Source: Eledone cirrhosa (Eukaryota). Taken from it: 64,000 nucleotides of DNA. The position numbers were made by a program, and so were the translations under genes. Each line of letters starts with the position of its first letter. The stretch's first letter is position 1. The notes under the pieces were generated by a model. It ran no database searches. It was given only the letters and a program-made list of their open reading frames with translations, and was not told where the DNA came from. Location: assembly GCA_964016885.1 (NCBI GenBank), contig OZ024761.1, forward strand, positions 1,860,001 through 1,924,000. Direction: 5' to 3'. Below, in pieces: positions 10,286-64,000 of the stretch.

Positions 10286-10348
10286 TATATATATATATAT
10301 ATGCAAAAGTTTTATTTAAGATTGTTGGGTTACAACGAGTAATTTTTG

Positions 10349-10414
10349 TATTTTGTCTGAGGAAGGCATAACATATTTTTAATATGATATCCCAGAAATA
10401 TATATAACGAAATA
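10349..10414 (+). ncRNA. minimal hammerhead ribozyme motif (pLTR fragment)
   Basis: UUUUGU-CUGAGGA-hairpin(CAUAUU/AAUAUG)-GAAA-UAUAUAUA-ACGAAA, followed by AAUAAA; downstream sequence resembles that after the 38461 copy. Confidence 0.65.
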
Positions 10415-10461
10415 AATATGGTTTTATAAATATAAATATAGTTTCCATTTGTTTAATATCG

Positions 10462-10493
<32 letters not shown>

Positions 10494-26815: not shown

Positions 26816-29123
26816 TGACTATATATATATATACAAATATATATATATACATATCTGAATATATATACACACATACATATACTCACCCATGCACACATAT
26901 GCACCCCCCACACACATATGTATATATATATATGTGGAGGCCCATGGCTTAGTGGTTAGAGCATTGGGCTTGCAATCGAAAGGTTGTGAGTTCAATTCTC
27001 AGACCAGGTGATGTGTTGTCTCCTTGAGCAAGACACTTTATTTCACATTGCTCCAGTTTACTCAGCTGCAGAAATGAGATGATAGGGACTGCGGTCCCTA
27101 TCATTCCACTGCAAAGTGGTCGTGGAGGTGCCATGGCAAAAAAGCATCCAGCCCACACTGTAGGCGCCATGGAAAAAAAAGCACCCAGCACTCACTGTAA
27201 ATGAGGTTGGTGTTAGGAAGGGCATCCAGCTGTAGAAATCAAGCCAGAATCAGTTCCCATCCCACCCTTGCAAGCAGGGAAAAGCGGACGTAAAATGATG
27301 ATAATGATGATGATATACACGCACACACATATATATATAGGTACACACATATATATGAGAATTAGGAAGTAAAGGTTTAAACCATATTACCTGACAACGA
27401 CCTGAGGGTAAAATCCACTTGTCACATCCCCAAGTTTTTGTCTGCCAAACCCTAAATATTAATAAACAGATATTAGCATATATTAACAAGGTGAACATTT
27501 AGATATTTAAAGAGGTGAACATTTAGATAAAGACAGCTTCTTTTACCGTGTGTGTATCATTTTATATCTACTTTCCAGTATGGCATTTGTTATTCTGAGA
27601 TGAGACAAGTTAAAGAGGTGCCATATCTTACCCTTCTAAAGCTTGATGTCTTTCCTAAAGCCAACCACTTTACAGAGTGTACTGGGTGCATATATATTTT
27701 TTTACGATTGACAAGATCCAACCTCATTTGCCCACCGAGTGGGTGGAACTCTTCAAATCGGACAAAAGAAAAAGGTTTCTATTGGTCTCTCCATTGCTGA
27801 TATTATCTACCAGTCTCTACTCCCAGCAGAAAGAGCAACATGAAATAAAGAGTCTTGCTCAAGGACATAACACATCAACCTGTCTGGGAATCAACCTCAT
27901 ATATACATGAATTGATGTTAAGACAGATGCTACATAATCGTATTTCTTTACTAATATGTATTTCAGTGACACCAATGTACAGTCGTTATTATGCAGTCAT
28001 TACAACAGTGACTGGCAATGGTGTGACATCATCAAATGTTAATTATGTGAAGAAGTTGAAATGCCTCAGGCAAATGGTTCCATTGAACATATGGCTCACC
28101 AATTGTTTCTTCCTTTAGTTTTCTTGTGGTGTGGTATCTATTTTCTAATTGGTGGATTTCATAAACTCTAGGCTATGTTGATTAATTCAACTATATCTAT
28201 ATGTGTATCTGTGAATGTCCAACATATGCTGAGCATGGAAAACCATATGTGAAATGATGAGGATTATATATATACTAGCTGGCCCTGTGCTGTCAAAAAT
28301 GATGGCTAATTGTAATAAATATACATAATATAAAAAAAGAGATGTTTGTTTGTTGGTTAGTTCCTTCGTTCTCACTCACACAAGTGATACAAACACACAG
28401 CCAATGTGTGCAGCCAAATCATTACACATAAACACAAGTGTGACAAATCTCAGAATACAGGACTAGTTTCTCACCCCTTCTTCAGTAATCACATAGATGT
28501 GTGTGTATGTAATAATTATTTTTTCTAAGTGTGTCTATATATATATGCGTAGATGTGTGTTTGTAATTCTATTGTCTATGTATCTTTCTAAATAAACACA
28601 CACAAACACATATACACTCACACAAATATTATATATATATATATAAAACTAGCCGATTTTCCCGAAATTTCTCGATCCCCTACGGCCCGCATTAGGTGAA
28701 AACCTGCATTTTTCCTGCTTCATCAAGGAAAATCTTAAAGATTATCCAGCCATCAGAGTATTCGGTTTATTTTCTTTACATATTGTCCAGGCATGCAGTT
28801 TTTCCACGAATAGGTCTGTTGGTGGCCTGCGTTCCAAAATACCTTATCCAGTGCAACCACTGCTACTATATAAATATAATTTACACATTAGTATGGCCAT
28901 GTGATGCACATGGATCATGACCGCTGGGTGAAGGAGTGCCAAGTAATCCCATTGGATCACCACGGAAAACATAGGAGGAAGTGGTGAGAGCTGACCTCAG
29001 ATCATTGAAGCTCACAGAGGAGATGACGAAGGACAGTGACGAATGGAGAGATGCAGTGCTGAAGAGGACCCGTCCCACCCTTGCAAGCAGGGAAAAGCGG
29101 ACGTAAAATGACAGTGATGATGA

Positions 29124-29174
<51 letters not shown>

Positions 29175-32100
29175 GAGATATTACCACTTATATTATTGTG
29201 TTGTGTTCTAGAAGAATTCCTATGGTTAGTTAGTATCCGTATTTGTGGAATTTGGTAAATTTCCGTGGTTGTATTTGGTGTTATTATTGGGTAGATTGAG
29301 ATTTTGAGTGCTTGGTATTCATATGTGGGTTGATAACATTGGTCATAGATCGTGTAGTAATAGTTGTTGTGGTTTTTCGGATGTTTGGTGTAATAGGAAT
29401 AACCCCTTTAGGTATTTGTTTCAATGGTATTTTTTGGTGTTTGTAGTTTTTGCTAGGTTTTATATTTTAGTCCATAGTAGTGTTGGGGATATATGAGAAT
29501 TTTTCTTTATATCCAATTCTAGTTAAGGCCTCGTTGTAGAAGGGTGCATTATTATAAAATATATCTTCATTGGAAGATAATTTAGAAAGTCTAAGAGATA
29601 TGTTATATACTAAGTTCTTGAGTATAGAGCCAGGGTGGTTAGATCGTGAATGTACATAGTGTAGATTGTGGTTGGGTTTGTGGTTAGGTTGATAAATATT
29701 CGTAGAGAGGTCTAAAGTGTTTTCAAAAGTGATGCTAAGGCTGTAATAGTCCTTGAGGAATTTTCTAATTTGTTTTTTTGTTTTTCTCTATATTGGAATT
29801 GCTAAGATTGTTAGATAACAATAGACAATCATCCTGATAAAGACCACCTTTGAGGTGGGGAAAAGAGTAATGAATATTATAGAGGAGAAATAGTCCAATG
29901 AGGTCTGTAACTTGAGCAGAGTCCATGGATCCCATCGTAATATCGAATAAGTTGCTATATGTGTTTCTTGTCCAGTATTCTTCTTGGAAGTTTAGTAAGG
30001 TTTTTCTAGCGCGAGTTATGATGTTGATTTCCTCAGTAGATAAATCCGATCTATTTCTGGCGAAGATCAGTGCTTTGTTTAAAAGAATTGGAGAAATCGA
30101 AGAATCGAAGAATCGATGTCGAATTGAATGAATGAAGCTGAGTTTTTATTCTCAATGCTAGATTTTGATGGACATATCAGTCTAATAGATGGGTTCGAGT
30201 TAAAGTCAGATTTATGGTCTTTCAGGTTGAAGTGCGGGCTTTTAGGCGTGAAAGGCTCAGTCCTATCTTCAATCTGGAGCTTTTTTACTATATCACATGA
30301 TATGTTATTCAGGGATGTCAGTGCAGTGGTATTTGCTTTCTTATAGTTTTTTTCTAAGTTCTTTATATATGAACTGGTTATATTTATCGATATCCATATG
30401 GTACAGATTACCAGTTTTGTGAGAATGGACATGGACCTTGTTTGAATTTTTCAGTTGTAGAAGGGTAGAGTCTAATCCCTTTTGGAATTCTGATTTGTGT
30501 TTTCTGAACTTTATGTTTTTAATCATGTTCAGTAGGGCGCTCTCAAAATTTTCAAGTTGAATATTATGAGGAGGATTTTTGTATGTTTTGAATCCATAGC
30601 GGTACTTCATTTCATTTGTATTGGTTTTGTTGTCAAAATGATAGGCCCTCCATCTCATTCTCCTAATAAATTGGTTAGTTTTTTGTATGAGCAAGAGTAG
30701 ATATTCATCTTTAGGTGGAATTGGAATATTCTTCAACGAGGTACCCAAATATTGTTTTTCCATTGTGATGCAGGAATTAGATAAAAAAAGAGCTCAACTA
30801 AATATTATAATCAATTATGAAAAATATATTGAAGGAGCAAAATGCACAGAGATATCCACAGTAAGTTGTGGGGTCTATTCTGCATGAAGAACTCAATGTA
30901 ATCCATATGTTGAAAATGTTGTAGGTTAAGATAAATCCCGGAAAACAGAGTCATGATATAAGTTAAAACAATGAAATAAAAAATCAAGTCATTAGAGATA
31001 TACTTCACTGCTTTACGATTGTTTCTAGGTGATGATATCATCATCATCATCATCGTTTAACGTCCATCTTCCACGCTTGCATGGGTTTGGACGGGAGTTT
31101 TCCCACTTGAGGCAAGATTGGTTGTCCTGCTCGTATAGGACGGTCTGGCGGGTTTTCTACGGCAGGATGCCCTTCCCAACACCAACCACGTTTACAGTGT
31201 GAACTGGGATGTTTTTACCGTGTTACCTACACGGCCACATTACAGCGTGGACTGTGTGTTTTTTTTTGTCGTGACACCTACATGTCTGGCGGGTTTTCTA
31301 CGGCTGGGTGCCCTTCCCAACACCAACCACATTTACAGTGTGGACTGGGAGGTTTTTACCGTGTTACCTACACGGCCACATTACAGCGTGGACTGTGTTT
31401 TTTTGTCGTGACACCTACACGACCGCATTTGTTTCGGACTGGATGTTGTGGCACCAACATAACTTCACATTTAAGGGGGTGGTGTGGATGGTGTGGGGGT
31501 ACTGGGATTGGGGTGTATTTTGTTAGAGGTGCCTACTGACTGTAGGTTTCGCTTTGTACTTAGGCAAGGCGGGTCTTCTGTATAACTGTGTAGCGCCAAA
31601 GATCTCGGTCCAGTGACATTGTCTTGGAGAGGTGTAAGTGTGTGAGGTCGGAATTTATCAAGTCGTCCCAGGTTTTTCTGGGTCTGCCTACTCTGTGGCT
31701 ACTGTCTATTTTTATCGCCCTGCAATTTTTTATACAGCTGTCGTCTTTCATGCGCATCACGTGACCATACCAACATAGTCTTCTCTCGAGTAAACAACAT
31801 CTGATCCCTCTTATCCTAATTTCTCCCTTAGTTCGTTTATGCTTTGCCATTCACGTATATTACTATTTCACATCCAGCGGAGCATGCAAGCTTCGTTTCT
31901 CTCCAGTCTGCGTATATCCTCTGCACACAATGCCCAGGTCTCACTGCCATATAACATTGCTGTTCGTATGCAGGCATTATACAGCCTGCCTTTCATTTTT
32001 AGAGAGAACCCTTTAGCGGCCAATAGTAGTATAAGCTCTCTGAACTTTTTCCATCCCGTTCTGACTCTAGCTACTGTACTTTCAGAGCACCCTCCACCAC

Positions 32101-36732: not shown

Positions 36733-39700
36733 ATCATCATCACCATTTTATGTCCGCTTTTCCTTGCTTGCAAGAGTGGGACGGGAACTGATTCTGGGTT
36801 GATTTCTACAGCTGGATGCCCTTCCTAACACCAACCTCATTTACAGTGAGTGCTGGGTGCTTTTTTGCTGTGGCACCTCCACGACCACTTTGCAGTGGAA
36901 TGATAGGGACTCAAGTCCCTATCATCTCATTTCTACAGCTGAGTAAACTGGAGCAATGTGAAATAAAGTGTCTTGCTGAAGGAAACAACACATCACCCGG
37001 TCTGAGAATTGAACTCACAACCTTTCGATTGCAAGGCCAATGCTCTAACCACTAAGCCATGGGCCTCCATTATATAACCCACCAGTGTTCTACTATTTTA
37101 TATAACCTATATATATGTATATGCATATATATATATAAATTTATAGATATATATATATATATAAATCCATGTACATCCTAACATGTAGCTCTGTACTTAC
37201 CTAAATACTGAAGCTGGTGTAGCAGACAACACTCTGTATCCATCAGGAGACCAACGCACCATAGTGTTTCCTCCTCCTCCAATCCTTCGAAGTGGTACTA
37301 CAGTCTCCATTGCAACATTCCATACCTACAAAATAGGTTATATATACATTCATCAAATTTAATGGTTAGCAAATAATATTGGAGTTATCTTTTCCTTTAA
37401 AATTGAGCAAACATAGACATAACTTGTATAAATTATATAGCTTCACTAAATTAATAATTGTTTCTACTTTAGGCACAAGGCCAGCAATTACCCAGTGCAT
37501 TACTGGTACTTTATTTTATCGACCCCGTAAGGATGAAAGGCAAAGTCAACCTCGGCGGGATTTGAACTCAGATCGTAAAGGGACGTAACTATGCTGGAAA
37601 GCATGGTGTCCAACCCTCTACCGATACTGCCAATCCACTAAATTAATAATTGTTTCTACTTTAGGCACAAGGCCAGCAATTACCCAGTGCATTACTGGTA
37701 CTTTATTTTATCGACCCTGTAAGGATGAAAGGCAAAGTCAACCTCGGCGGGATTTGAACTCAGATCGTAAAGGGACGTAACTGTGCTGGAAAGCATGGCG
37801 TCCAACCCTCTACCGATACTGCCAATCCACTAAATTAATAATGTTCTGAAAATATTTTCTATGTTGGATGAAAATATTTGAATCTACAAATTGTTCTCTT
37901 ACAATTTGAACTACATCTTTTTCTTAAATATTTATGTAACATGTAAAATCAACATCCTTCGTAACTCATATTAGAAATGTAAACAATTAATACGTGTTTT
38001 ATATCTATAAAATCACCAATAATACTTATACTTGCACACTTATTAATCTATATAGATATTTATATACTTACAACCTGTTGCAATATAATAAGATAAAATG
38101 TACTTACAACCATAATTCTTCACATAATCTAATTGATTATATATATAATATTATAATTTTTTAAATTCTGGAATCATATTCCACCATTCCTACAAACTGT
38201 TAATTCTTTTTAAATTCACGTAAATACAAGCTTTTCTTTCTTTCTCTTTCTTCTTCCTACACATACATACATATATCCTAATAATTATTTAAATCTACCT
38301 AGCATCTAAAAATAAGGTTTTTTTTCAGCCATTATACCTCAATATTCATCTTAATAATTTGAAATATTTGACTTTTCTTCTCTTTTCCTTTACTATCCAG
38401 GAAAAACTTGAACCGTTAAGAGCTTCCTGGTTATGTCAATATTTATAAAACAAACTTTGTATTTTATCTGATGAGAGCGTACCAAGGTTTTGGTACCCTT
38501 GAAATATATATAATAGAATAAATATGGTATTATAAATATAGTTTCCATTTATTTAATATCATTGAATGTGTTATATATATATATATATATATAGATTTGT
38601 GATGCAAGTACACTGACTATTTGCATCACTAACTTCCAGAAACTTGCCAGCCACCTAATAACCTACAAATCTGGCGAGCACATAAGCCAGATTGACTTCT
38701 TACTAGTTAGGCAGAGGGACAGGCAGATAGTGTCTAATACCAAGGTATACCCTGGGGAAGAATGTACCCTCACAGCATAGGTTAGTCGTTGGTGATATCT
38801 CAGTAAGCAAGAGATGGAATGAGACATACAGGAATGTGTGGAGAAGAAAGGTCTGGAAGCTAAAAGACCTTTCACTAAAATACAAATTTAGGAAAGCCCT
38901 TCAAGATGTGTATGACGAAAAAGAAAACGATTTAGAGACGTATGACATAGATAATAATTGGAATGTGACAACTCACTGCAGGCTACTGATTAAACTTGTG
39001 GCTGGAGCAGAGCTTCAACCAGACAGAGAGTGACCTGGTGGTGGAACAGCACAGTAGATAAGGCCATTAGAGACAAAAGACTAGCATGGAAGGCTTGGAA
39101 AAAGGGTGGGAGTAGGGAAGGATAAACATCCGCTAAGAGAGAAGCTAGACATCAGGTGTACTTAGCACGCAGGGAGGCTGAGAGTAGGAGGCTTGCCAAT
39201 GTTCTGCAACGGGAAGATCAGAGGTGTGCGGTGTTCCACATTGCAAGGCAGTGTGTCAATGCAAATCAGGATGTTGTTGGAGATAAATGTGTCTGGAATG
39301 ATGCTGGTGTACGAAAGGTTGTAACTGTAGAAACAAAGCAAATTGCCCATTAAAAGGAAATTGCCTTATTAATAACATAGTATATAAATGTAAAATTAGC
39401 ACTAAGGACTCAATTTATTCATATATAGGAGCTATGTCTAACCAATTTAAAGTAAGATTTAATACCTACAAACACAGTTTTAAAAATGCCGCATTAGCTA
39501 ATACAACATCCTTGGCTGAAATAATTAATAATTATAGAAAAAAGAATATCGATTATAACCTGACCTGGAGTGTGCTCAAAAGGGCCACCCCTTATCAAAA
39601 TAACAGATATGAGTGTAGATTATGTTCCCAGGAACTTTTTGAAATAATGAAATCTAAGGATATCTTAAATAAGCAACAAGAATTAATTATATCGTGCAAT

Positions 39701-41188
39701 CATAGAATTAGAAGAACTTTCAAATATTATAAACCTAATTAATATACGCTTATATTTTACAAATTATTATAATTAGTTTTTTTAAAATTTAGTTAACCTA
39801 TAATTAGTATTTTACTACTGAGAAATTCATAATTTTATTTCCCTTTTACAGCTATCTTTTCCTAAAATTAATACCTATAAGTATACATATAAACTATTTT
39901 AATTTCCTGTTATGAATCGAAATTCCTTGTAGTCTATATAAGTTTGTTATTTCTCACTAATACATTTATCCCCCCAAAAATTTTTTTCCTTTGTTTTTAA
40001 CAACATTTTTTCATTTGTTTTTAACAACATTGTTTAATAACATCTAACTCTTATTTATCACATCTATATGAATTAATATAAATTTATCCCTATAAGTATA
40101 CCTATCAATTAAATTAATTTAATTTCTTTTTATAGATCTAAATTCCTTATGTTTTAAATAAGATTGGTATTTCTCACTAACACATTTATCCTAAAATTTT
40201 ATTCTCCTTCGATTTTAACATTAGCATTATTCTTTAATAACATCAAATTTTCGTGTACCTTTCACCGGCTTGACCTCTTTTCATCCCCAAAGTAATCTTT
40301 CCATTCAAAACTGAAGTCTGCATTCCTCTACCCCTAAATTAAATTTCTACTATTACTATTCTATCAACTTGACCACTTACTACTTTTCTATTGGTCAATT
40401 CAAAAACTGTTCCCAAACAGACCTATTATATTAAATCTTTGTTGGTTTTTTTCAATAAACAAATATCATTATTTCTGAAGACAGCATATATATGTGAAGG
40501 TATGTATATTCCCTCTGATAGTTTGTAAAATGTTTACATAGATCTATATGATCACACACATATATATCCTAGAAACGATCATAAAATGATGAATTTTTTA
40601 ATATAAGGAACTGTTTCTTTGCTTTTATTCATTGTTTTTATTAATTTATATATATATATTTTGAGTATATGTTGGTTGTATACCAACACCTCAGTATGCA
40701 GATTGGAGCACTCGACGAAGTGTGCAGGTTGGTTTGGTTACTCCGGAGTAATGTAAAATAAAATAAAATAAATAAGTCAAATGTTTAAAATTTAGCTTCG
40801 TTTATTACTGCTATATATATTTCGGTGACAGCCATCTTTGGCTGTGACCTCTTCAGGCAGTCCAAATTAGTGTGGTATAGACAAGTACATATGTTGTTGA
40901 GGTGTATAACTTTGTCAATACTCTGATATGCCCAGTTCCTGGTATGATATGATTCCAGTTCCTCAGTGAAATAACAACCCAACCAGGAACTGGGCATATC
41001 AGAGTATTGACAAAGTTATACACCTCAACAACATATGTACTTGTCTATATAATTCAGACTGCCTGAAGAGGTCACAGCCAAAGATGGCTGTCACCGAAAT
41101 ATATATAGCAGTAATAAACGAAGCTAAATTTTAAACATTTGACTTATTTTTTTTATTTTATTTTACATTACTCCGGAGTATTTTATTT

Positions 41189-41228
<40 letters not shown>

Positions 41229-44200
41229 GTGTGTGTGCTTAGAGAGCAAAAAGTTTGAAGAAATACCACAAAGCTTCCAACATTCTTACAACTCTCCCAC
41301 TGCCTGTAATATTGTGTGAGAGGAAACTTCCATCAACATTATACAAGCAAATGACAGTAGAGCTCGCTCTATGGACATTCATCTTCACAATCAATCAATC
41401 ACTGATAAAGTAGATCAATAATGTTGTCTCTTGATAACCATTCAATCATGACATTGATCTTCACAATCAATCAATCACTGATAAAGGAGATCAAAAATGT
41501 AAGATACTGCCATTGCTTTTAATATAATTTTGAAAATAATCATGAATTCTGAAGGATTTAGTAATATAACTAACATTCTCATTATTAAGCTAGTGTTTGG
41601 AACATAACTTAACCAAAGCTTTTACACAAAATTAAGATAGAAAGTTTTAGATAAATATAAAATAAACAGTTTTGTATCACAGAACCAGGGGTGGCTTTAG
41701 GTGGTCTGGTATGAAAAGGGTTAAACATTTATAGTAAAATATTTCTTTATATGAGCTAAAACAGAGGTTCTCAAAGTGGGTGCCCCCACCCCCCGGGGGG
41801 TGGGTAGTGGCTGGCGCCGAGAAGGTCCAGGGGGTGGTATAGATGATATAATAGTATATTAAATATCACAGGAAAGAATCGCTGGATAGATTTTAGGGGC
41901 AAAACCAACGTAAGAGACCCAGGGGTAGACAACGAGCAAGATGGTTGGATATCATCCATGAGCTTGGCTGGTCACGCTTGGGGATCCAGCTAGATCAGTT
42001 AGAGATAGTTGCTTCTGAAAGGACCTGATGGAAGGAGTGTTTGAGGACTGCCCCCACGACCCTCTCAGGAAATGTGGGCGAAGAAGAGAAGATATATTTA
42101 CAATTTACGTGTAGGCAGGTCTCTCTTGAAATAGGGTTTGGGGATGATTAGGGTATTACGGGGTCATGATGGCGGGGGGGCTGGCCCCAAAAGTTTGAGA
42201 ACCTCTGAGCTAAAGAAAGAAAGAAGAAACTGACCATTATAGCAGTATCAATGGGTGAAGCCGAGAGTAAGAGGTCACCACTTGGACTCCATGCTAAACT
42301 AGACACTGGACTGTGATGGTTTTGTTGGAGGATCTGGACACAGCTGGCTGATGGTCTGTAGAGTAAAATGGTAAAGTTAGAGGTAGGGGTGGTAATGGTG
42401 TTGCTGATGGTAAATGTGGTGGTGGTGGTGTTGCTGATAGTAGTTGTAGTGGTGGTGGTGGGGGGGGGGGGTTGCTGGTGATGATCATGATGGTGGTGCT
42501 GCCGATAGTTGTAGTGGTGGGGTGGTGTTGTTGGTGATGATGATGATGGTGGTGGTGGTGATTGTGTTGCGGATAGTAGTAGTAGTGGGGGGGGGGGGGG
42601 GGATGCTGGTGATGACGATGATGATGATGGTGGTGGTGATAGTAGTGGTAGTGGTGGTGATGATGGAGGATCAAGCTATACCTTTCCGCAAGCGACATTG
42701 GTTCCACGTGCCAAATAAGGATACAGGAGCGGCAAGCCACAGCAAGAACGGACGATGAGAATGGTCTGGAATATATAGAGAAATATTTATTATGTCTGTG
42801 TGTAAATATGTATGTGTGTGTGTGCATGTGTGTGTGTTTGACTGTATATGTATGTGTGTGTGTGAGTGTGTGTGTGTGAATGTGTGTAAATAGAACAGGA
42901 AGAGTTGATTCTTGGTGTTATTAAGACTGAAGAGATTGATGTCTGAAGGAAGGGACAGGGCCCATAGCCTTCACATACTCTCTGTGACCACAGAAATATA
43001 TCTGGTAGGTCTGGGGGAAGGGACAGGGCCCTGGCCTTCACATACTCTCCGAGACCAGAAAAATTGATGTTTTTTGTTTTGTTTAAACTGTTGCAAGTCA
43101 TGTTCTGTCCAGCCCCCTCAGGCACTATCCTTATTGACCCCAGTACTTTACTGGTACTTTATTTTATCAACGCCAGAAGAATGAAAAGTAAAGCTAACTT
43201 CAGTTGGATTTGAACTATTTTTAGTTCAAACATAAAGAGCCAGAACAAATGCTGCATTTTATACAATGCTCTACCGATTCTGCCATTCCACCACTCCTAA
43301 ATAAAGGTTTCTCATCTAGGCTCAAGGCAAATTTTTTTTTTTAGTACGTTATTTTATCAACCCTGTCATAATTAAATACCACAAAGATTTTTGTCTGACA
43401 CTCTACCAATTCTGCCGATCTACAATAAAGCTTTACCGTACTTACTGCCAAGCAAGATCTGTGACATTCTTCTGTAACTTGGTCCTTAATATGGGGACCA
43501 GAGTCATTCCACCTGTGTGAACCTTGACAGAGTCGTCTACAAGGGCGTAGGCAAATTTGATTGCATGGGGATGCCATGTAAAGGAGCAGATGATTCCAGG
43601 AGACCTACAATGAAGGCAAACAGATAGGCACAACAACAACAGCAACAATTTATAATGAACAGGGGAAGAGAGAGAAGAGAAGAGACAGGAGAGGAAACAA
43701 CAAATATTTACCAGTTTGTGGGTGATGAATACTGATTAATAATATCATCTGTGGACAGCTGAATAGAAATAGAAGTTAAAACATGAGAGATATCTTATGA
43801 TAGAGATAAGTTAACATGGGGTAAATGAGACATATCTTATACACATAGAGAGATGTTTGTTTATGATTGAAATATATGGATAAATAATACTTATGACAAT
43901 GTTTTTGTTGCCATCATCTACTTATAATATATAACCAGCAATTTCTCTGTCTGTCTGTCCGACAGTGGAAACACGTGCGCACGTGGTTGCTATCTCTCTC
44001 TCTCTCTCTCCAGCTATCCCTCTCTTTTAGTCTGTCTGTTCCTCTCACTCTCACTCTTTCTCTTTGTAACACACTAACATTCCTCCCCTCTATCGCTGTG
44101 GCGAATGGGGAGATGGAGGAGGAGAGAGTCACTTCGTCACTTCACCTCTGCCTTTCTTTCTCTCCCCTCTCACTCCCTCATTACGTACAGACATTAGGGC

Positions 44201-60859: not shown

Positions 60860-62517
60860 ACACAAAAAAAAATTAATATCTAAAAATAAAAAAATGTTTG
60901 GTATGTGAAGGGTAAAGCAAAAAAAGAGGGGGGAAATAAATGACATAAGAAAAGGTTTAAATATAAGGGGAGATAAGGGAGAAAGAGAATACAAGAGTAC
61001 AGAACGTGGATTCAGCAGGTAAAAAAACCGTAGTGGAAGTAAAGAGCAGAGAAGGAGTTCAAGGTGGTTGAGTTATCATAGGAATGTCAATCCAGTTACA
61101 GATCAGATGTGATTTCAGATGAGGACAACATCTGAAGATCTCAGTCTTTGAGTTCAGGCAAGCAGAAGTGGCTTCCAAGTTTAGCAAAATCCTATATTTT
61201 TCTGTGGTACACAAAGAACAATTCTTTGTGCCCCTTTGGTACTCCCTCGAATGGTCTAAAATAGACCAATCGATAGAGTACGGGAGGTTTTTATCCTTGA
61301 ATTCCCACACCTTACTTGCGAGAGGGCCATTGCTGTTCGTTTATCGGAGTACTTAAAAGAAGCGACATGTGCATAAAACCTGGTTTTAAACCTGTCCTGG
61401 GTCATGCTAACATATCGCTCACCTCTGGCTGGCTGGTTGTTGAATAAAGGTGTCACTTTAGTCTTATAAACAACAGATTTGGTGTTACATTTGCCCTGTA
61501 ATGGGCATTCATCTGGCTTCCTGCAACTGCATCCTTGATTTGTTCTCGTATGATTTGAATTAGTGATCTTAGACTTCATTGATGGGCAACAAGAGTAACT
61601 GATCTTAACTACATTTCTATTAAATATCTTATGATATCTATGATTAGGAGGAAAATGTTTATCTAAGAGTTCAAGGAATTTCCTTCCTACATTAGTTTTG
61701 ACAGTTAGAGAGAAGGGGGGTGTAAACCAAATAATTTTCCTTTTCCTATTATTGTGGTTAGTTTTAGGGGGGGGAGTAGGTAAATAATAAATTTGTTCTG
61801 TAAAACCGCTGTTTTTAAGGGCTTTATTATAATAAGGGGCGGCTTTATTAAAAATGTCTATAGACGAAGATAAGGTAGAAATCCTACGGCTAATGTTGGG
61901 AATAAGATTTTTAAAAACTATAGGAGGATGGCAAGACTCTTTGTGTATATATCTAAGATTTTCATTAGGTTTATGATAAGGTTTAAAAGAGGCAGTAGTA
62001 GATCAAGATTAATGTCAAGAAAGTTAGCATTGGTAAGGTTCGTATCTATAGTAATTTTAAGGTTAAGATTAGCAAAAGTATTGATTAAATCTTTACGGAA
62101 TTTATCAAGGTTATGGCCGTTGGTGGTATTAAAAACTGCCAATCCGTCATCACGGTATAAACTGATATTATAGGAAGGAAATTTCTCTTTGAGGGTGTGG
62201 AGAAGGAATAATCTGACGAAGTCACCCACATCCGCACTGTCAGATGAACCCATTGTAACATCAAAAGAGTTTTCAGGATTTGATTTTTTAACCCAAATAT
62301 TTTCATTAGTAAAGAGTAAAGTTTTTCTAGCATGAAAAATAATGTCTTCTTCTAATTTAGAAATATTAATGATGGGTCTTACAAACACTAAGGCATTAGT
62401 TAATAAGGAAACAGTAATAGAGGGGTAAAAATCAACAATATCAAATTGGGTAAATCTACACTTATTTTTACCTTGTATATTATTAAACCAAGAAATAACA
62501 GAGGAAGTATTTAGCCA
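60860..62517 (-). mobile_element. Penelope-like element, 5'-truncated (RT + GIY-YIG), AT-rich family
   Basis: QFDIVDFYPSI, FDVTMGS, LYRDDG, FLD, WFTPPFS, CSCRK..CPLQG.C, CSLC..EK. Confidence 0.9.
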
Positions 62518-64000
62518 CCAGTTCGATATAGACTCCTACTATACGTCTATATCCCCCATATTACCGAATAAGGCGCTCATACTGGCAATGCGGACGGGCG
62601 GAATCACTAGATCCCAGATTGATATAGTTCTTGCCGCTCGTAAAACAATTATCACATTTTAGGATGAATTGTGGACGCGCAAGAACACACATAATAACTT
62701 CGACATCACTATGGGGTCTAGTGACTCGGCACAGGTGACAGACCTCGTCGGCTTGTACCTGCTCAAGGAGCTCAACGAGCAGTTCCCGCACCTCAGAGGT
62801 GGGCTGTACCGTGACGACGCATTGCTTACTGTGGAGTTTAAACGACACAACCTAGAAAGAACTAGAAAGGACCTATATAAATTCTTCAAGAACTTTAACC
62901 TATCAATAACTATGGATAAAAATAGTAAGGTAGTCAACTTTCTAGATGCCACACTAGACCTAGATAAGTTAGAATATGCACAGTACCATAAACCTAACGA
63001 GAGGCTGACATACGTCAATGCCAACTCCAACCACCCAGGCTCAGTCCTCAAAGCAATAGTTAAGGGAGTATCTAGTAGGATAAGCGGACTATCTAGCAAC
63101 GTGACTGCATTTGAGGCAAATGCAGAGTATTACAATAAGGCGCTAGCTAGGTCAGGGCACAAAGATAAACTTCATTATATTGAGACAAACGGCACCACCC
63201 CACTACCCCAACCCAGCACTGTAATCACGCACAATATGTCCATGGGGGATGGAGGGAGGTCTAGAAAGACGAATAGGGACAATAAGAATTTAGCTAAGAA
63301 CACCAACACTCGCAATGCAGACTCGGATAGGGCCCGCACGGCTGGATAGCATTACGCCGCCCCAAGCAAGACCAACAGTGAAAACGGGGGCCAGAGGTCT
63401 AGGAGATTCGAGACCAATACACATACCACCGGGAGCCCAGGACGCACACCTGGTAGAACCCGTAATAATCTAGATGAAGGGAGGGTAAGCAGCATAGGGG
63501 ATAAGAGACGCAGTGGAAGGAATAGAAGACGTGATAGCACCTTCTTTAACCCGCCCTTCAACTCTAATATTATTACAGACCTCCCCAAATCTTTTTTCTC
63601 TTTAATAGATAGGAACTTCCCCCCAGGTACTAGGTACGGTAGTGTCATCAATAAGAATACTATCAAACTATCGTACTCGACAACCCCTAATCTGGCCTCC
63701 CACCTAGCTAAGACCAATAAGAGTAAGATTAAAGAGGGACTTAAGGCCATCCGTAATAGCGAACCACGCCAGTACACACGGCAACATGGGACCGACCCAC
63801 TGAGTGAAGGACCCAGGGGGATAACAGGCAATAGACCCGGTCCCACTAGGCAGCCCCGCGGCCGCTTGGAGGGACATGTACCCCTGATTGAGGAACATGA
63901 CCCTATTAGGAAGTGTAATTGCCGACGGAAGGACAAATGCCCACTAGCTGGACACTGCCTTATTAAGTACGTAGTATATGCTTGTAACGTAACCACAGAC
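62518..64000 (+). mobile_element. Penelope-like element, 5'-truncated, GC-richer family; runs off the window
   Basis: QFDIDSYYTSI, FDITMGSSDSAQV, LYRDD, NFLD, SNHP, FNPPFN, KLSYS, CNCRRK.KCPL.G.CL; in-frame stops at ~62660 and 63347. Confidence 0.9.

What the first reader, a model, noticed from the sequence alone, without database searches (positions are those of the whole stretch)
40739..41180. Intronic palindrome with identical intact hammerhead ribozymes on both strands
Seen: arms of ~200 bp each contain the same 55-nt type I hammerhead (stem I ACUGC/GCAGU, CUGAAGA, long stem II, GAAA, palindromic UAUAUAUA stem III), followed by AAUAAA. It lies in the AAAS intron between exons 8 and 9. Known: Penelope-like retroelement pLTRs carry minimal hammerheads with palindromic loop 3 that cleave as dimers, and PLE insertions often have inverted ends. 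Inference: whichever strand is transcribed, the antisense arm is made first and the ribozyme second. The unit would therefore be a self-masked ribozyme and a long dsRNA hairpin, tolerated in a host pre-mRNA and possibly unmasked by ADAR editing or processed to small RNA. No coding sequence is included, so it could be a non-autonomous, ambisense retrozyme-like element.
Basis: partly seen in the sequence, partly recalled or inferred. Interest (0 to 1): 0.72.

Follow-up and report, generated by a model that had tools for sequence, protein, structure and literature searches.

The report
Back-to-back Penelope retrotransposon ends
This mirror-image stretch in an intron of the AAAS gene is two cut-short ends of a very common Penelope-like jumping gene lying back to back; each end carries that element's self-cutting-RNA (hammerhead) motif, predicted to be silent here, so it is an ordinary insertion of an already described kind.

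Summary
The palindrome and the two identical 55-nt type I hammerhead motifs are real and lie in an AAAS intron on the minus strand. The unit is larger than reported (40659-41195, between (TA)n runs) and is not its own element. Each arm is the 3' end (pLTR) of an endonuclease-positive, Hydra-clade Penelope-like retrotransposon. The 52-nt hammerhead occurs 1,040 times exactly in this genome, and longer copies join it to RT + GIY-YIG frames. The central junction and right end occur once each, so this palindrome does not spread as a unit. Across the family, 29 of 30 classifiable head-to-head pairs have one arm with the ~92-nt tail and one without, and paired arms are half as divergent as re-paired ones. 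That points to two primings in one insertion event (inferred). The ribozyme is predicted silent twice over: helix III is unstable as a monomer, and the arm is paired with its mirror. Inverted truncated copies, a one-sided tail and opposite-strand hammerheads are all in print (Craig 2021; Cervera 2014; Arkhipova 2013). This scan noted the same kind of structure several times on other DNA. Cleavage, editing and expression were not tested. Ordinary; low interest.

The parts
40659..40943 (-). Left arm: 5'-truncated pLTR of the Hydra-clade PLE, with the full tail (positions 933-1217 of the natural reference copy from L003)
   Evidence: (99% to reference)
40659..40738 (-). Part of the family tail present only in the left arm; in full-length copies the tail runs on into the 5' leader and the start codon
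40807..40861 (-). Type I hammerhead motif on the AAAS-sense strand; predicted cut after 40812; predicted fully paired with the right arm in the pre-mRNA
40944..40946 (.). 3-nt filler at the head-to-head junction; the junction is single-copy in the genome
40947..41180 (+). Right arm: 5'-truncated pLTR without the tail (reference positions 898-1137); starts at the family's common 5' breakpoint at the CATATG palindrome
41058..41112 (+). Type I hammerhead motif, identical to the other; predicted cut after 41107; AATAAA at 41113-41118
41181..41195 (+). Repeat of TTTTATTTTATTTTA, the family's usual short end; this doubled end is single-copy, likely a slip at the start of copying
41194..41228 (.). 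(TA)n target, right side
40647..40658 (.). (TA)n target, left side
42235..42355 (-). AAAS exon upstream of the intron (121 nt)
37201..37325 (-). AAAS exon downstream of the intron (125 nt)

Best explanation
The palindrome is two 5'-truncated ends (pLTRs) of a Hydra-clade Penelope-like retrotransposon lying head to head in a TA repeat, likely made in one insertion event. Shown: arm identity, parent element, flanks, one tailed and one short arm, unique junction. Inferred mechanism: the element's GIY-YIG endonuclease cut both strands of a (TA)n run. Each freed end primed reverse transcription at one of two fixed sites 92 nt apart on the element RNA, the tail end and the U-rich short end, both with TA-like microhomology. 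Both cDNAs stopped early and their ends were joined through a few bases. The hammerheads are passengers of the pLTR and are identical because the copy is young. In the AAAS pre-mRNA they are predicted inert: the motif needs a same-strand partner to build helix III, and here it is locked in a ~200-bp duplex. The likely consequence for the host is an intronic dsRNA hairpin that is spliced out.
For: 1,040 exact 52-nt hammerheads, 0 for the reversed control. Longer copies carry RT and C-terminal GIY-YIG frames on the same strand ahead of the pLTR, including a 700-aa open frame in L060; Atlas neighbours carry RVT_1/GIY-YIG/HTH_animal. L099 reads pLTR-tail-ATG-ORF-pLTR. 3' ends fall in two clusters: 65 tailed and 51 short of 123 arms. 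29 of 30 classifiable head-to-head pairs (33 found; 3 cut or interrupted) are tail+short, binomial p 6e-8 against 0.5. Paired arms differ at 114 of 4,722 sites (2.4%) against 4.9% on re-pairing (minimum 3.9% in 5,000), also across spacers over 1 kb (45 of 2,044). In 9 of 29 pairs, this one included, the short arm reaches further 5' than the tailed arm, which fold-back of one tail-primed cDNA cannot give (counted by hand). Junction and right end single-copy. 128 of 139 arm ends have TATATA within 40 nt (some loci counted twice). Folding: active monomer 2.7 kcal/mol above the open form; the two-strand minimum is the active dimer; duplex P 0.9995. In vitro a PLE cuts and extends both strands and starts at two internal sites that bound the tail (PMC11167929).
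Against: The priming steps are inferred from end patterns only. Similar arms could also come from two RNAs of one master locus or from gene conversion. This locus itself has 0 shared minor variants, so it adds nothing on a common template. The 123 arms pool three differently selected samples, each biased to young copies. One pair (L050) has two tailed arms. Arkhipova 2013 favours self-priming on an antisense template for such junctions. The family unit (about 4 kb) is longer than the '<3 kb' given for Hydra elements. No read or contig spanning this junction was listed.
Confidence: 0.88

Rival explanations
1. Same origin, but the mirror arm arose by self-priming or fold-back: one copy folded at a short palindrome and was copied back on itself, or an antisense RNA primed itself (Arkhipova 2013).
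For: 12 of 37 arms in the exact-hammerhead sample start at reference 895-900, a near-palindrome around CATATG. Several junctions are almost loopless hairpins (L007, L011, L012, L027). It explains the similarity of paired arms. Palindromes at pLTR 5' ends are described in rotifer PLEs.
Against: Fold-back of a tail-primed cDNA needs the short arm to be contained in the tailed arm. This fails in 9 of 29 pairs, here too, and L078 has non-overlapping arms. It does not by itself explain the fixed short end.
Confidence: 0.25
2. One reading: a non-autonomous, ambisense, retrozyme-like palindromic unit that spreads as a whole and whose ribozyme is masked and then unmasked by ADAR.
For: No coding sequence in the unit. 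Both motifs are intact. Short palindromes are common: 8 opposite-strand divergent pairs within 300 nt among the first 100 exact hits. Masking is predicted.
Against: Junction and right end are single-copy. Breakpoints vary among the 31 pairs listed, apart from recurrent use of the CATATG site. No tandem arrays were seen. The hammerhead is not clearly more conserved than its 3' flank in ORF-selected arms (2.9% against 2.5%; 5' flank 4.5%; core 6 of 429). Editing of a perfect duplex would also hit the core adenosines (inference). No A>G strand excess among rare variants (38 A>G against 29 T>C, p 0.81).
Confidence: 0.03
3. Assembly artefact (fold-back chimera).
For: No listed contig spans the stretch; the flanks are simple repeats.
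Against: The arms differ at 3 sites plus a 6-nt indel; two of the differences are loss of the same CpG on opposite strands. The ends are asymmetric by the family-wide tail/short rule.
Confidence: 0.02

Closest known systems
Hydra clade of EN+ Penelope-like elements (Craig et al. 2021, PMC8557442), incl. Hydra-1_Obim and Penelope-13_HM
   Same: C-terminal GIY-YIG, RWK, DKT, CxCX5C linker, CxxC and CxH, no CCHH, (TA)n targets, type I hammerhead near the 3' end. Penelope-13_HM is listed with a 5'-truncated inverted copy and the same hammerhead on both strands.
   Different: A different family from Hydra-1_Obim: other hammerhead sequence, stem III AUAUAUAU instead of AC..GU, unit about 4 kb against 2.5 kb, low-complexity inserts before the endonuclease. 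Compared by eye with the supplement text, not by alignment.
Dual minimal hammerheads on opposite strands in Schistosoma PLE remnants (Cervera and de la Pena 2014, PMC4209133)
   Same: Two PLE hammerheads about 100-700 bp apart on opposite strands; long helix II, short helix I, palindromic helix III; inactive as monomer, weak as dimer.
   Different: Other PLE clade and host. The motif here has no unpaired base between the core and the first pair of stem II, and its stem II has an internal C-C mismatch.
Poseidon PAc of Anolis (Frangieh et al. 2024, PMC11167929) and rotifer Penelope insertions (Arkhipova et al. 2013, PMC3846280)
   Same: Two fixed 3' ends that bound a tail; the tail is the start of what follows the 5' pLTR; tail on one of two inverted pLTRs; AT-rich targets.
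   Different: The tail is about 92 nt and non-coding here (30-40 nt, inside the ORF there). The hammerhead lies about 210 nt before the ATG rather than over it.
Metazoan non-LTR retrozymes (as defined in bioRxiv 10.64898/2026.07.22.740005)
   Same: Non-coding, type I hammerhead, related to PLE pLTRs.
   Different: Retrozymes are head-to-tail tandems with a hammerhead in each unit; this is a head-to-head pair with one sense hammerhead per strand.

Membership tests
EN+ PLE, Hydra clade (parent element) | RT plus C-terminal GIY-YIG in one ORF | tested here: met
   700-aa open frame L060:381-2480 with the YRDD region and the endonuclease; GIY-YIG E 0.002, below Pfam's cut-off, on L031 and no Pfam hit on L060; Atlas clusters with RVT_1/GIY-YIG at 0.95-0.97
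EN+ PLE, Hydra clade (parent element) | RWK motif and DKT in place of DKG | tested here: met
   RRMRWKAF and HADKTNN in L099 and L113; definition
EN+ PLE, Hydra clade (parent element) | CxCX5C linker; CxxC and CxH around the conserved E and N; CCHH absent | tested here: met
   CNCRNPESC; CKLC..E..N..CRH; one Cys only in the GIY-YIG core
EN+ PLE, Hydra clade (parent element) | Insertion into (TA)n | tested here: met
   128 of 139 arm ends; both ends here
EN+ PLE, Hydra clade (parent element) | Generally shorter than 3 kb | tested here: not met
   About 4 kb per unit in L099; a tendency in the paper, not a diagnostic motif
EN+ PLE, Hydra clade (parent element) | RT phylogeny groups with Hydra | not tested
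   Reference proteins were seen only as supplement text; no tree was built
PLE insertion with inverted truncated copy | Adjacent inverted 5'-truncated copy; tail at one end only | tested here: met
   This locus and 29 of 30 pairs; described
Type I (dimer-type) hammerhead ribozyme | CUGAnGA and GAAA cores, NUH site, helices I-II, palindromic helix III | tested here: met
   Rfam models did not hit
Type I (dimer-type) hammerhead ribozyme | Self-cleavage | not testable with these tools
   folding predictions only
Non-LTR retrozyme | Head-to-tail tandem units, each with a hammerhead | tested here: not met
   Head-to-head here; 0 same-strand neighbours within 1 kb among the first 100 of 1,040 exact hits
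Non-LTR retrozyme | The unit is copied as a unit | tested here: not met
   junction 1 hit at up to 1 mismatch; right end 1 hit
Non-LTR retrozyme | Circular or unit-length RNA | not testable with these tools
   no RNA run was available to lay

The most novel reading that the evidence does not exclude
Penelope-like elements insert by coupled twin priming: one RNA is copied twice, once from each strand of a cut TA repeat, each strand taking a different one of two fixed start sites, with the downstream copy displacing the upstream one. The 29-of-30 tail/short rule, the shared variants between arms and the cases where the short arm is the longer would be its genomic footprint. It would explain the long-noted inverted ends and one-sided tail.
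Probability: 0.4. Interest if true: 0.42.

Novelty: new member of a known kind. Interest (0 to 1): 0.13.

Why it matters
As a locus it matters little: one of probably many dozens of such short mirror insertions (8 pairs among 100 listed hits, of 1,040) in a TA-rich intron that holds older relatives too. The family is a convenient data set for an open question, how PLEs build inverted ends and a one-sided tail; Craig 2021 names this as unresolved, and a reconstituted PLE reaction now exists to test it. The long hairpins are also candidate dsRNA for host editing or small-RNA pathways, untested here.

Tried and rejected
Rfam scans: no hammerhead family; only microRNA-precursor models below their gathering scores, an effect of the long hairpin. 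Pfam on the 700-aa frame and a PDB sequence search: nothing useful. Sequencing runs: no RNA holder listed. Reads and contigs (4 of 12 listed runs laid): dominated by other family copies, no piece spans the stretch, so presence/absence and assembly were not tested. Selection on the hammerhead after insertion: not shown. The commonest change, C11.1 to U in 27 of 116 arms at a CpG, weakens a conserved pair. Two identical 55-mers are unremarkable at about 4 differences in 205 nt (roughly a 30% chance, hand arithmetic). ADAR footprint in genomic copies: no A>G excess among rare variants. Over all variants T>C exceeds A>G (195 against 107), but shared subfamily sites make those counts non-independent, and my samples exclude strongly diverged copies (identity under 84%), so hyper-edited copies would be missed. 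The first descriptor script missed the motif through a lazy pattern and was redone; one folding script crashed and was rerun. A literature search for Penelope with twin priming listed no paper that, by title and abstract start, applies it to PLEs; that is one search of an open-access library only. A search for octopus, A-to-I, intron and Penelope gave one unrelated paper. AAUAAA as a working poly(A) signal: doubtful, since both copied ends lie downstream of it (inference).

Full report
Observation. The sequence at 40739-41180 is a near-perfect inverted repeat. The arms differ by three substitutions and a 6-nt indel, and the region folds far better than all 100 shuffles (z -38). A 55-nt type I hammerhead motif is identical on both strands, with predicted cuts after 41107 (+) and 40812 (-). 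Rfam does not call it. A descriptor scan finds 3 motifs in the window against 0-2 in 20 shuffles. The host gene is AAAS on the minus strand: the two flanking exons match consecutive parts of the Aladin propeller model, and the intron spans 42234-37326. The exon numbers 8 and 9 rest on recalled human exon lengths.

True limits. A search of the own genome with the right arm gave 1,175 candidates; 40 were scored and their best places cover the arm at 94-100%. The left arm here carries that same extension, so the insert is 40659-41195: (TA)n, left arm with tail, 3-nt filler, right arm without tail, a doubled TTTTATTTTATTTTA, (TA)n.

Parent element. [quoted passage not shown] L099 reads pLTR, tail, about 55 nt, ATG, ORF in two frames, long 3' region, pLTR. 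The protein has RWK, DKT, CxCX5C, CxxC and CxH and lacks CCHH. These are the features that Craig et al. 2021 give for the Hydra clade (PMC8557442: abstract, passages, section 11, supplement part 2 of 59 and passages). It differs from their Hydra-1_Obim in hammerhead and length; no tree was built. Pfam support is weak; Atlas neighbours carry RVT_1, GIY-YIG and HTH_animal. That the host is an octopod is taken from earlier notes of the scan and from the resemblance to Hydra-1_Obim; it was not determined here.

Copy number and architecture. The 52-nt hammerhead has 1,040 exact matches and the reversed control has 0. Among the first 100 listed, read by eye, 8 pairs are divergent within 300 nt, 1 is convergent and none is a same-strand tandem within 1 kb. 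Of 27 loci from that list, 9 have a head-to-head partner within 1.5 kb. Over all 123 distinct arms fetched (hits under 84% identity, not reaching the hammerhead region, or under 28 nt were dropped), 3' ends cluster at two sites 92 nt apart: 65 tailed, 51 short, 7 other or cut. Of 33 head-to-head pairs, 29 are tail+short, 1 is tail+tail and 3 are unreadable. In 28 pairs with at least 95 shared bases the arms differ at 2.4% against 4.9% when re-paired, and share 80 minor variants against a mean of 17.7 (maximum 39 in 2,000). Pairs with spacers over 1 kb behave alike. The pair in this window has no shared minor variant. The tailed arm reaches further 5' in 16 pairs, the short arm in 9 and neither in 4 (hand count). 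The junction and the right end of this insert each occur once in the genome.

How it likely works. Frangieh et al. (PMC11167929, parts 1-2 of 4 read) show that a PLE protein cuts and extends both strands of AT-rich DNA, starts copying at two internal RNA sites that bound the tail, and does not need hammerhead cleavage to insert; its hammerhead cut only when the protein was present. I infer that both ends of a cut (TA)n primed copying here, one at the tail end and one at the short end, and that the two truncated cDNAs were joined head to head by a few bases. One RNA with two sites would explain why each site is used once; two RNAs of one master locus, or gene conversion, are not excluded. Self-priming on an antisense template, favoured by Arkhipova et al. 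2013 (PMC3846280, 9 passages), fits the hot spot at the CATATG palindrome (12 of 37 arms) but fits less well the pairs in which the short arm is the longer. I put about 0.93 on the identity and about 0.6 on two primings.

The ribozyme. The monomer's active fold is 2.7 kcal/mol above the form without helix III (pair probability 0.006 in a single arm). Two copies together fold best as the active dimer through AUAUAUAU. In the AAAS-sense strand the motif pairs with the antisense arm with probability 0.9995, even when the transcript stops just after it. A head-to-head insert offers only one sense motif per strand, so no dimer forms in cis. Cervera and de la Pena (PMC4209133, parts 1-2 of 4) report no cleavage by such monomers and low cleavage by dimers, and already mention dual motifs 100-700 bp apart on opposite strands. 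In ORF-selected arms the motif diverges 2.9% against 4.5% and 2.5% in its flanks; 34 of 39 cores are intact. That fits youth plus selection on master copies and does not show function at this site. No A>G strand bias was seen among rare variants. Expression, editing and cleavage were not tested.

Comparison and verdict. Craig 2021 describes the inverted 5'-truncated copy and the one-sided tail as usual for PLEs, and lists Penelope-13_HM with the same hammerhead on both strands. Non-LTR retrozymes are tandem arrays (bioRxiv 10.64898/2026.07.22.740005, part 1 of 5 read, supplements not seen), which this is not. My reading of the identity was set before I opened the scan's earlier notes. Those notes describe the same kind of structure in this and other genomes and some propose the same double copying; they are unchecked and not independent support. 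Verdict: a real feature, an ordinary insertion of a Hydra-clade family that I did not find among the families listed in the supplement part read; interest 0.13.

Noticed in passing
window 39302-39742 (+) and 40467-40595 (+): An older Hydra-type endonuclease relic (35% identity to L060, E 1e-23) lies 1 kb upstream. Its 3' region holds a hammerhead-like motif with a ~90-nt stem II domain; related reads carry G at 40581, which makes stem III palindromic. The palindrome inserted into the (TA)n at the end of this older element.
   Followed up: partly
window 38463-38518 (+), related stretch at 10345-10489: A third type I hammerhead motif of another family in the same intron (CUGAUGA, the same GAAAUAUAUAUA); antisense to AAAS.
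   Followed up: partly
window 29485-30793 (-), 61110-62517 (-), 62519-63997 (+): Further broken Hydra-type RT/EN relics; the last two lie head to head, meeting at 62517/62519 (tblastn).
   Followed up: no
L078 1133-2506: Tail-only piece inverted against a short arm, with no overlap, like L1 twin priming; followed by another inverted arm.
   Followed up: partly
reference copy from L003, positions 895-910: Sharp hot spot of 5' ends (17 of 37 arms) at and just after a CATATG palindrome; may be the RNA start or a favoured joining site.
   Followed up: partly
window 40659-40700 (-): The tail ends in a predicted bulged hairpin right at the copied end, and a 14-nt palindrome TTACTCCGGAGTAA lies next to the short end; possible start signals for copying.
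   Followed up: no
window 26945-27002 (+): tRNA-like head of a dispersed repeat, likely a SINE (Rfam tRNA 31 bits).
   Followed up: no
L080 1393-1718: A rare tail-to-tail arrangement of two arms with exact hammerheads.
   Followed up: no
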